A DNA stretch of 63,443 nt, the filler included, from Collodictyon triciliatum (Eukaryota), in the NCBI GenBank assembly GCA_043381765.1. It is 26 parts of 26 records of this genome, joined end to end, with 100 filler letters (N's around TTAATTAATTAA, not from the genome) between each part and the next. Parts side by side here need not be neighbours in the genome. Positions count along the whole stretch, not along the records: positions 36,687 to 39,028 come from JBHJMP010009063.1; 25 more parts are not named here. One strand, 5' to 3'. Position 1 is the first letter of the stretch. Every line of letters begins with the position of its first letter. A program made the position numbers and the translations under genes. Below the pieces are notes generated by a model. The model saw nothing but the letters and a program-made list of their open reading frames with translations. It did no database searches and was not told where the DNA came from. This document shows, piece by piece, positions 37,067 to 37,198 of the stretch.

Positions 37067-37198
37067 GTACACCAATCTTTTGAATGGTATACCTGGTCTG
37101 CTAGTATCCAAGGTCTCACCACCTTTTTCACAAAGATTGTGTAGTGGTGAAGGCTGCCAGGAAAGACCCAACAGCCTGTTTTTTAAAGAAAGGTGTAC
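37067..37198 (-). ncRNA. Candidate Fanzor omegaRNA scaffold, copy 2 (best-paired)
   Basis: Hairpins at 37151-37177, 37117-37149, 37091-37114 and 37067-37092, plus complementary ends 37067-37073 / 37192-37198. Confidence 0.65.

What the first reader, a model, noticed from the sequence alone, without database searches (positions are those of the whole stretch)
37067..37198. Conserved, structured ~135-nt segment at the Fanzor 3' end: candidate omegaRNA scaffold
Seen in all three copies (also 32079-32213 and 57001-57143), read on the minus strand. H1 is GGCUGUYGGG-UCUUU-CCUGGCAGCC. H2 is CACCACU..RGUGGYG enclosing CAC..GUG. H3 is ACCUUGG..CCAGGU. H4 is a terminal hairpin whose sequence differs but still pairs: AUUC-AAAA-GAUU, AUC-GAAA-GAU, UAU-UCG-AUA. 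The two ends are also complementary with copy-specific sequence: GUACACC/GGUGUAC in copy 2, UUAUAC/GUAUAA in copy 3, AUACA/UGUAU in copy 1. This pairing competes with H4 and may be a closing stem or pseudoknot. In copy 2 the segment overlaps the last codons of the ORF. Known: TnpB and Fanzor omegaRNAs come from the element's right end and often overlap the ORF end. Inference: this is the scaffold.
Basis: partly seen in the sequence, partly recalled or inferred. Interest (0 to 1): 0.85.

Follow-up and report, generated by a model that had tools for sequence, protein, structure and literature searches.

The report
Relic guide-RNA scaffold of Fanzor transposon
The flagged stretch is most likely the folded guide-RNA part at the right end of a Fanzor1 (RNA-guided nuclease) jumping gene, an already described design, and all three copies here belong to dead genes.

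Summary
The three segments exist as described, on the minus strand. They sit at the 3' ends of three decayed Fanzor1 copies and stop where homology between the copies stops.

Helices H1, H2 and H3 are real complementarities:
- Copy 2 folds far better than shuffles (z -5.1).
- Copy 3 folds weakly (z -2.25).
- Copy 1 does not fold better than shuffles (z +0.12).

The three copies alone give no evolutionary support. None of 28 pairs is compensatory, 6 cells are broken, and identity is no higher than in the ORF.

Support comes from relatives:
- 20 non-redundant Fanzor1 loci from metagenome and giant-virus contigs carry a covarying RNA structure at the same place (24 of 34 pairs compensatory).
- In that joint alignment 16 of 28 pairs change on both sides and stay paired.

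The reverse tests are weak: relatives' model E 0.27 (top hit) and 3.5, nhmmer nothing. H4 is really a longer hairpin whose 3' arm is the transposon end. The "copy-specific" end pairing is mostly re-registering. No RNA data could be had.

Verdict: relic omegaRNA scaffold, a new member of a known kind, of modest interest.

The parts
37128..37656 (-). Copy 2: a 5'-truncated 3' fragment of a Fanzor1 pseudogene (P0001 residues 473-643). The stop TGA is at 37130-37128, inside H2.
   Evidence: BLAST between copies. tblastn with P0001 gives two frames and 2 stops in the matched pieces. Sequence read.
37067..37198 (-). Copy 2 candidate omegaRNA scaffold, the flagged segment. Parts: distal arm GUACACC 37192-37198; H1 37152-37176; H2 37117-37149; H3 37091-37114; terminal hairpin 37067-37092, whose 3' arm GAUUGGUGUA is the right end.
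   Evidence: Fold z -5.13. Coordinates. Top hit of the relatives' model R1 in the whole window, E 0.27. Alternative folds.
32079..32213 (-). Copy 1 scaffold, decayed. H1 is broken by 3 unpaired cells, and the fold is no better than shuffles.
   Evidence: (z +0.12).
32152..34032 (-). Copy 1: a near full-length Fanzor1 pseudogene (P0001 residues 17-643).
   Evidence: tblastn gives four pieces in three frames with 23 stops in the matched pieces. The 5' end runs into an A-rich repeat and an N mask.
57001..57143 (-). Copy 3 scaffold. H1 and H3 are intact, H2 is damaged. There is an A-rich insertion between the distal arm and H1.
   Evidence: (z -2.25). Other copies in runs X3 and X6 lack the insertion (table 4).
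57153..58475 (-). Copy 3: a Fanzor1 pseudogene (P0001 residues 182-620).
   Evidence: tblastn gives four pieces in three frames with 7 stops. ORF list.

Best explanation
The segment is the scaffold part of the guide RNA (omegaRNA, also called fRNA) of a Fanzor1 transposon, preserved as a relic in three dead copies.

Inferred mechanism in a live element:
1. The sense strand (the window's minus strand) is transcribed through the end of the Fanzor1 ORF and past the right end.
2. The last 110-135 nt fold into H1, H2, H3 and a terminal hairpin. H2 is the two-tier stem-loop that all relatives have. In the terminal hairpin an internal complement pairs with the right-end sequence GAUUGGUGUA.
3. The roughly 15-21 nt of flank after GGUGUA serve as the guide.
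4. Fanzor1 binds the scaffold and cuts DNA that matches the guide.

Shown here: the ORF is Fanzor1, the segment sits at the ORF tail and the right end, copy 2 folds strongly and strand-specifically, and H1 and H2 are kept across lineages with different stem sequences.

Inferred only: transcription, processing, protein binding and guide use.

In this window nothing suggests present function. All three ORFs are broken and the copy 1 fold has decayed.
For: - Fanzor1 identity.
- Position and right boundary.
- Fold: copy 2 z -5.13 on the minus strand against -3.23 on the plus strand, helped by G-U pairs in H1 and H2.
- Relatives: model R1 finds the ORF-tail region on the ORF strand in 20 of 20 non-redundant loci searched at E <= 0.05. 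In that alignment 24 of 34 pairs changed on both sides and 88.9% of cells pair, against 69.7% in shuffles (0 of 500 reach it) and 34-53% when slid.
- Conservation in relatives is at the nucleotide level. The same block is read in different frames or lies behind a stop in L010, L011 and L014.
- Reciprocal test: model R3, built from the three window copies with H1-H3, searched over 17 loci (83,651 bases, filters off). It puts L002 (E 3e-6), L001 (2.2e-5), L010 (2.1e-4) and L014 (0.061) on top, each at its ORF tail.
- In the joint alignment 16 of 28 pairs changed on both sides (1 of 500 shuffles reach it) and 92.6% of cells pair against 71.6%. H1 has 7 of 10 such pairs and inner H2 has 3 of 5.
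- Literature (passages read): Fanzor guide RNAs come from the 3' end and right inverted repeat. The GtFz1 omegaRNA overlaps 17 C-terminal codons and has four stem-loops in 150 nt (PMC10432273, PMC11423790, PMC10530073).
Against: - There is no RNA evidence of any kind.
- Among the three copies there is no compensatory change, and conservation is no higher than in the ORF.
- The relatives' models do not reach significance on the window. R1 gives E 0.27, copy 2 only. R2 gives E 3.5, ranked second behind a (TA)n stretch. Copies 1 and 3 are not found.
- nhmmer with the relatives' profile finds nothing at the copies.
- Local alignment of the tails is no better than shuffles: 109, 62 and 67 of 300 shuffles score as high.
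- The alignments behind searches were fitted to the models. rests on few independent lineages, and L001 and L002 are near-identical.
- E-values from these short-calibrated models are rough.
- H3 has no clear counterpart. In relatives the matching bases belong to a different, well-covarying small hairpin.
- The last bases are also a transposon terminal repeat, which is conserved for DNA-level reasons.
Confidence: 0.75

Rival explanations
1. It is only a DNA-level transposon end. On this reading the terminal inverted repeat, subterminal repeats and palindromes serve the transposase, and no guide-RNA role is involved.
For: - In relatives the left end is the reverse complement of the last ~30 bases. 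Left ends were found in 5 of 16 loci examined: L003, L005, L014, L031 and L038.
- R1 also hit two left ends on the other strand.
- The most conserved blocks of the relatives' tails lie in this repeat.
- In the window the distal arm GUACACCUUUCUUU is an imperfect inverted copy of the right end.
Against: - H1, H2 and the relatives' small hairpin lie outside the terminal repeat and still covary.
- G-U pairs make the fold better on the ORF strand.
- Published Fanzor guide RNAs use exactly this repeat as part of the scaffold (PMC10432273, PMC10530073), so the two roles are not exclusive.
Confidence: 0.12
2. It is a structured 3' part of the Fanzor mRNA with another role, such as stability or translation control, or it reflects coding constraint on the C-terminal tail. 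On this reading it is not a guide scaffold.
For: - H1 and half of H2 lie inside the ORF tail.
- The tail KKQAVG... is shared with P0001, P0007 and P0008.
Against: - In relatives the structure persists where the frame differs or a stop lies upstream.
- The structure runs on to the element's last base.
- Stem sequences differ between lineages while pairing is kept.
Confidence: 0.08
3. The helices are chance complementarity in one ancestral sequence, seen three times only because the copies share descent.
For: There is no covariation among the three copies, and copy 1 folds no better than shuffles.
Against: - Copy 2 has z -5.13, with 0 of 200 shuffles as good.
- R3 finds relatives at their tails at E down to 3e-6.
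- R1's best hit in 126,886 searched bases (both strands) falls on copy 2, end to end.
Confidence: 0.04

Closest known systems
GtFz1 omegaRNA (Guillardia theta Fanzor1; Saito et al. 2023 PMC10432273; Xu et al. 2024 PMC11423790; passages and section 5 read)
   Same: - It belongs to a Fanzor1 protein.
- The scaffold overlaps the last codons of the ORF: 17 aa in GtFz1, against about 15 codons here, or 23 if the distal arm is counted.
- It is about 150 nt with four stem-loops and a guide at the 3' end.
   Different: No sequence or structure comparison was possible because the omegaRNA sequences are in supplements, which are closed. P0001 matches the GtFz1 protein only distantly (E 2e-28 over parts). 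Here the copies are dead.
SpuFz1 omegaRNA and 'ghost' Spu-1 loci (Spizellomyces punctatus; PMC10432273)
   Same: - The scaffold is made from the region that includes the right inverted repeat.
- The variable flank beyond it is the guide.
- The stem next to the guide uses the repeat.
- Scaffold-only copies without a working gene exist.
   Different: SpuFz1 has a 75-nt scaffold with two stems that lies downstream of the stop codon. Here the scaffold is about 110-135 nt, has four helices and overlaps the ORF.
Right-end RNA of the giant-virus and metagenome Fanzor1 elements found here (L001-L051; models R1 and R2)
   Same: - The same order of parts: a 5' hairpin (H1-like, in 8 of 20 loci), a two-tier stem-loop (H2), a linker, then a terminal hairpin ending in GGUGUA(A).
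- R3 links the two groups.
   Different: - The relatives have a small extra hairpin and a much longer terminal hairpin that holds a ~30-nt terminal repeat. The window lineage has a 4-nt loop there and H3 instead.
- Membership by R1 and R2 is not significant.
ApmFNuc fRNA and ISDra2 TnpB omegaRNA (PMC10530073, passages read; the TnpB comparison as cited there)
   Same: A guide RNA from the 3' end of the element that overlaps the right repeat, with conservation reaching into the coding region.
   Different: These belong to Fanzor2/TnpB of IS607/IS605-type elements, a different protein clade. No sequence relation was tested.

Membership tests
Fanzor/TnpB omegaRNA (fRNA) scaffold | Encoded on the nuclease's strand, at or overlapping the 3' end of a Fanzor/TnpB ORF | tested here: met
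   tblastn with P0001 runs to residue 643 of 648, at 37137 and 32152, inside the segment.
Fanzor/TnpB omegaRNA (fRNA) scaffold | Ends at the transposon right end, with unrelated flank (the guide) beyond it | tested here: met
   Homology between the copies stops at 32079, 37068 and 57008. Flanks are not alike. Contigs of other genomes start covering at about 57004. Guide use itself was not testable.
Fanzor/TnpB omegaRNA (fRNA) scaffold | Conserved secondary structure supported by covariation | tested here: inconclusive
   Within the three copies 0 of 28 pairs are compensatory. Across lineages 16 of 28 are, mainly in H1 and H2, but on a model-fitted alignment of 7 rows. The relatives among themselves show 24 of 34.
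Fanzor/TnpB omegaRNA (fRNA) scaffold | Transcribed and bound by the nuclease | not testable with these tools
   No run on record as RNA was listed. The runs laid were contigs, probably DNA.
Fanzor1 omegaRNA as seen in solved structures | First stem-loop (SL1) of seven base pairs contacting RuvC/TNB (PMC11423790, section 5) | tested here: inconclusive
   The outer H2 stem has 7 pairs in copy 2. Whether H2 or H1 corresponds to SL1 cannot be told without a complex.
Fanzor1 protein | TnpB-like RuvC with zinc-finger C-terminal half, and sequence similarity to solved Fanzor1 | tested here: met
   - 70% identity to P0001.
- P0001 matches GtFz1, PpFz1 and SpuFz1 at E 2e-28 to 4e-23.
- CxxC..CxxC and RDFNSA motifs are in the translations.
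- The Pfam TNB domain scores only below its cut-off.
Fanzor1 protein | Intact open reading frame | tested here: not met
   All three copies have frame changes and stops, or are truncated.
Right-end RNA of the giant-virus and metagenome Fanzor1 relatives (models R1, R2) | Significant match to the covariance model | tested here: inconclusive
   R1 gives E 0.27, top hit, copy 2 only. R2 gives E 3.5, rank 2. nhmmer gives none. The reciprocal model R3 gives E 3e-6 to 0.061 on 4 of the 17 loci searched.
Any Rfam family | Match at gathering score | tested here: not met
   0 matches in the window and 0 in four relatives' loci.

The most novel reading that the evidence does not exclude
The 3' end GGUGUA(C) can pair with either of two internal complements. 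One is the nearby arm, GUAUACC, giving the terminal hairpin that relatives share. The other is a distal arm, GUACACCUUUCUUU, 125 nt upstream inside the ORF, giving a closing helix around the whole scaffold. In copy 2 the closed form is 7.5 kcal/mol more stable. If real, this would be a conformational switch. While still part of the mRNA, the scaffold would be locked and its guide junction hidden. Processing that removes the distal arm would free the terminal hairpin and the guide. A further point: copy 2 is a 590-bp fragment with a dead ORF but a fully foldable scaffold. It could still act in trans as a 'ghost' guide gene for an intact Fanzor1 elsewhere in the genome.
Probability: 0.1. Interest if true: 0.55.

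Novelty: new member of a known kind. Interest (0 to 1): 0.3.

Why it matters
It adds a eukaryote-genome Fanzor1 lineage, and its metagenome and giant-virus relatives, in which the guide-RNA scaffold can be delimited from sequence alone. The scaffold consists of a 5' hairpin inside the ORF tail, a two-tier stem-loop, and a terminal hairpin that uses the transposon's own end.

This is useful for annotating Fanzor right ends and for picking scaffold boundaries if an intact member (P0001 type) is tried as an editor. It does not change what is known about how Fanzors work. The copies in this window are dead, so no biology of the host follows from it.

Tried and rejected
- **Whole genome.** None is held for this window.
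- **Earlier notes.** Look-ups by place and by sequence returned nothing.
- **RNA expression.** No RNA holder was listed. The four runs laid were contigs. X3 and X6 are only guessed to be RNA and cover the whole element evenly, so they say nothing on transcription.
- **Close relatives in viral contigs by DNA pattern.**
  - The 18-mer gave 1 hit (L052) with no further likeness.
  - The 15-mer gave 54 hits, none with the neighbouring motifs except one unrelated GC-rich stretch.
- **MAFFT plus RNAalifold on 15 relatives' tails.** This gave 0 pairs because of misalignment. A four-sequence seed worked.
- **Broader model R2.** No gain for the window.
- **nhmmer profile of the relatives.** No hit at the copies.
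- **Smith-Waterman, window tails against relatives' tails.** Not above shuffles. My visual alignment of blocks such as CUUCACC and GUUGAUUUUAC is therefore not evidence on its own.
- **Homology beyond GGUGUA.** I suspected it by eye, and shuffles rejected it.
- **Solo scaffold copies in the window.** None found by blastn-short or R3.
- **Left end of the window's element.** Not visible: copy 1 runs into an A-rich repeat and an N mask.
- **DNA for the closest proteins (P0001, P0007, P0008).** Not obtainable.
- **Linker-to-loop pairing in relatives** (GUUGAUUU with AAGUCGGC). Both sides are invariant in the close group and not compensated in L023-L026, so I make no claim.
- **Supplements.** The omegaRNA sequences of Saito et al. 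and Xu et al. are in supplements, which are closed, so I made no direct comparison with published scaffolds.

Full report
**What is in the window.** The window looks like eukaryotic DNA: about 34% G+C, many microsatellites, and pairs of 44-base N masks every ~2.44 kb. It holds three copies of one repeat on the minus strand.
- Copy 1 spans about 32079-34032.
- Copy 2 spans 37068-37656 and is a 590-bp 3' fragment.
- Copy 3 spans 57008-58483.
- The copies are 85-86% alike pairwise.

**The gene is Fanzor1 and all three copies are dead.** The translations show the C-terminal half of a TnpB-like nuclease, with CxxC...CxxC and then RDFNSA. The 144-aa fragment of copy 3 is 70% identical to an intact 648-aa protein, P0001, and 51-60% identical to four others. 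P0001 matches the solved Fanzor1 proteins of Guillardia, Parasitella and Spizellomyces at E 2e-28 to 4e-23. tblastn with P0001 shows the damage:
- Copy 1 covers residues 17-643 in four pieces and three frames, with 23 stops.
- Copy 2 covers residues 473-643, with 2 stops.
- Copy 3 covers residues 182-620 in four pieces, with 7 stops.

**The observation.** In copy 2 the ORF's stop (37130-37128) lies inside H2. About 15 codons therefore overlap the structure, or 23 if the distal arm GUACACC (37192-37198) is counted. The segment ends where the copies cease to be alike. Flanks beyond GTNTA are no more similar than shuffles. In two other runs that hold 242-260 contigs of this repeat, cover starts at about 57004.

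Folding differs sharply between copies:

| Copy | z, minus strand | Shuffles as good | z, plus strand |
|---|---|---|---|
| 2 | -5.13 | 0 of 200 | -3.23 |
| 3 | -2.25 | 3 of 200 | -1.43 |
| 1 | +0.12 | 102 of 200 | -0.64 |

The advantage of the minus strand comes partly from G-U pairs in H1 and H2.

**What the three copies cannot show.**
No pair changed on both sides, three changes are wobble changes and six cells are broken.
- Identity in the segment equals that of the ORF.
- This is what neutral decay of dead copies gives, so 'conserved' and 'covarying' do not hold at this level.
- The H4 stem core is shared by descent and mainly the loop differs (AAAA, GAAA, an expanded loop). A loose-end consensus from run X6 shows CCAAUC-UUUC-GAUUGG (table 7).
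- In copy 2, H4 extends to GUAUACCAUUC-AAAA-GAUUGGUGUAC.
- The 'copy-specific' complementary ends are an invariant UACACC facing GGUGUA. In copies 1 and 3 the 3' side has mutated and pairing is regained only by shifting the register in UAUA-rich sequence.

**Relatives.** One metagenome scan and one viral-contig scan with a protein alignment gave 51 loci encoding Fanzor1 relatives, many from giant-virus bins.
- Their ORF tails end in a shared ...GGUGUAA, 100-260 nt after the protein match.
- In 5 of 16 loci examined the reverse complement of the last ~30 bases is found upstream as a left terminal repeat. The 3' arm of the last hairpin is therefore the transposon's right repeat, as published for SpuFz1 and for Fanzor fRNAs (PMC10432273 and PMC10530073, passages read).
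- A four-sequence seed gave a consensus of a two-tier stem-loop, a small hairpin and a long terminal hairpin.
- Its covariance model R1 found the tail, on the ORF strand, in 20 of 20 non-redundant loci searched at E <= 0.05.
- On that alignment 24 of 34 pairs changed on both sides and 88.9% of cells pair. Shuffles give 69.7% (0 of 500 reach the observed value) and slid partners give 34-53%.
- The alignment is fitted to the model, which favours the structure, but the controls are far off.
- The conserved block is read in different frames, or lies behind a stop, in L010, L011 and L014. The constraint is therefore on nucleotides and not on protein.

**Linking the window to the relatives.** Results against the link:
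- nhmmer with the relatives' profile finds nothing at the copies.
- Local alignments are not above shuffles.
- R1 scores copy 2 at only 14.2 bits, E 0.27. Still, this is the best hit in the whole window on both strands, it is end to end, and its 3' end falls on GGUGUAC.
- R2, built from 20 sequences, ranks it second at E 3.5.
- Copies 1 and 3 are not found by either model.

It was searched with filters off over 17 relatives' loci (83,651 bases).
- It puts L002 (E 3e-6), L001 (2.2e-5), L010 (2.1e-4) and L014 (0.061) on top, each exactly at its ORF tail.
- H1 falls on a 10-12-bp hairpin that these relatives carry just upstream of the two-tier stem-loop. H2 falls on that stem-loop.
- Eight of 20 relatives have such an upstream hairpin.
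- In the joint alignment of 7 rows, 16 of 28 pairs changed on both sides (1 of 500 shuffles reach this). 92.6% of cells pair, against 71.6% in shuffles and 41-47% when slid.
- By helix the both-sides changes are H1 7 of 10, inner H2 3 of 5, outer H2 2 of 7 and H3 4 of 6.

Caveats on this test:
- The alignment is model-fitted.
- There are few independent lineages.
- E-values from short calibration are rough.
- For H3 the relatives' bases belong to the small hairpin that covaries well on its own, so H3 remains a lineage-specific or uncertain helix. In copy 2 the minimum-energy fold prefers a different pairing there, UGGAUACU with GGUAUACCA.

**Reading.** The best explanation is a relic Fanzor1 omegaRNA scaffold. 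H1 lies in the ORF tail. H2 is the conserved stem-loop. Its outer stem has 7 pairs, which recalls the seven-pair SL1 of solved Fanzor1 complexes (PMC11423790, section 5), although the equivalence is untested. A variable middle part follows. Last comes a terminal hairpin that uses the right end, with the guide expected in the flank. Compared with the relatives, the window lineage has a minimal terminal hairpin with a 4-nt loop where they have ~36 nt. It has H3 where they have the small hairpin. Rfam holds no family for any of this.

The DNA-only rival, that this is just a terminal repeat, explains the last bases but not H1 and H2. The chance rival is excluded. Transcription, processing, binding and guide use are inferred from published Fanzor systems and are not shown here.

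**Earlier notes of this scan.** A look-up by words returned notes describing the same design in giant-virus elements, in which the right repeat is paired by an internal copy. I checked the repeat and the internal complement myself. I use those notes only as leads.

**Verdict.** This is a new member of a known kind, dead in this window, and of modest interest.

Noticed in passing
window, whole length (for example 2350-2449, 4799-4898, ... 61009-61108): Pairs of 44-base N runs 12 bases apart recur about every 2.44 kb, 2200 N in all. They look like a mask laid on the sequence and not like assembly gaps. They hide the 5' ends of copies 1 and 3.
   Followed up: partly
L003:522-553, L005:2908-2939, L014:139-170, L031:16-47, L038:3-33: Left terminal repeats of the relatives' elements, which are the reverse complement of the right end (TTACACC...ATTTAAAA[CT]GCC...). 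Elements measure about 2.0-3.7 kb. R1's two minus-strand hits (L003 522-616, L031 16-78) are these left ends.
   Followed up: partly
L001:4862-4870 with L001:4918-4926, and the same blocks in L002, L003, L008, L011 and L014: The two most conserved blocks of the relatives' tails are complementary: the linker GUUGAUUU and the terminal-loop AAGUCGGC, with three G-U pairs. This could be a long-range or pseudoknot contact. Both sides are invariant in the close group, and the changes in L023-L026 are not compensatory, so it is untested.
   Followed up: partly
window 56900-58450 laid on runs X3 and X6: Two small runs of two different organisms hold 260 and 242 contigs that are 80-99% like the element over its whole length. 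The repeat is therefore high-copy in at least two related genomes. Most listed differences from copy 3 are shared by nearly all contigs, so copy 3 carries many private mutations.
   Followed up: partly
L014:3300-3345, L010:490-540, L011:2120-2190: The peptide-like block EKVGQSVDFT at the end of several relatives' ORFs is kept at the nucleotide level where it is out of frame (L010) or cut by a stop (L011, L014). It is a clear case of an RNA or DNA constraint masquerading as a conserved protein tail.
   Followed up: yes
window 34412-36228, minus strand: ORFs with ankyrin-repeat-like sequence (for example LHLASRQGHQTVVELLLSHGSDP and NGHRRIIDYLLENGANLE) lie between copies 1 and 2. This is probably a host gene with introns.
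   Followed up: no
P0009, P0010: Two short proteins from an NCBI source are 78-82% identical to the copy 3 fragment but scrambled at their ends. They look like gene calls on further decayed copies of this element.
   Followed up: no
window 36687-36944, 37693-37916, 56237-56453 and many others: Long purine/pyrimidine microsatellites, (CTTT)n-like on the minus strand, border copy 2 on both sides and recur throughout the window. Copy 2's 5' truncation abuts one.
   Followed up: no
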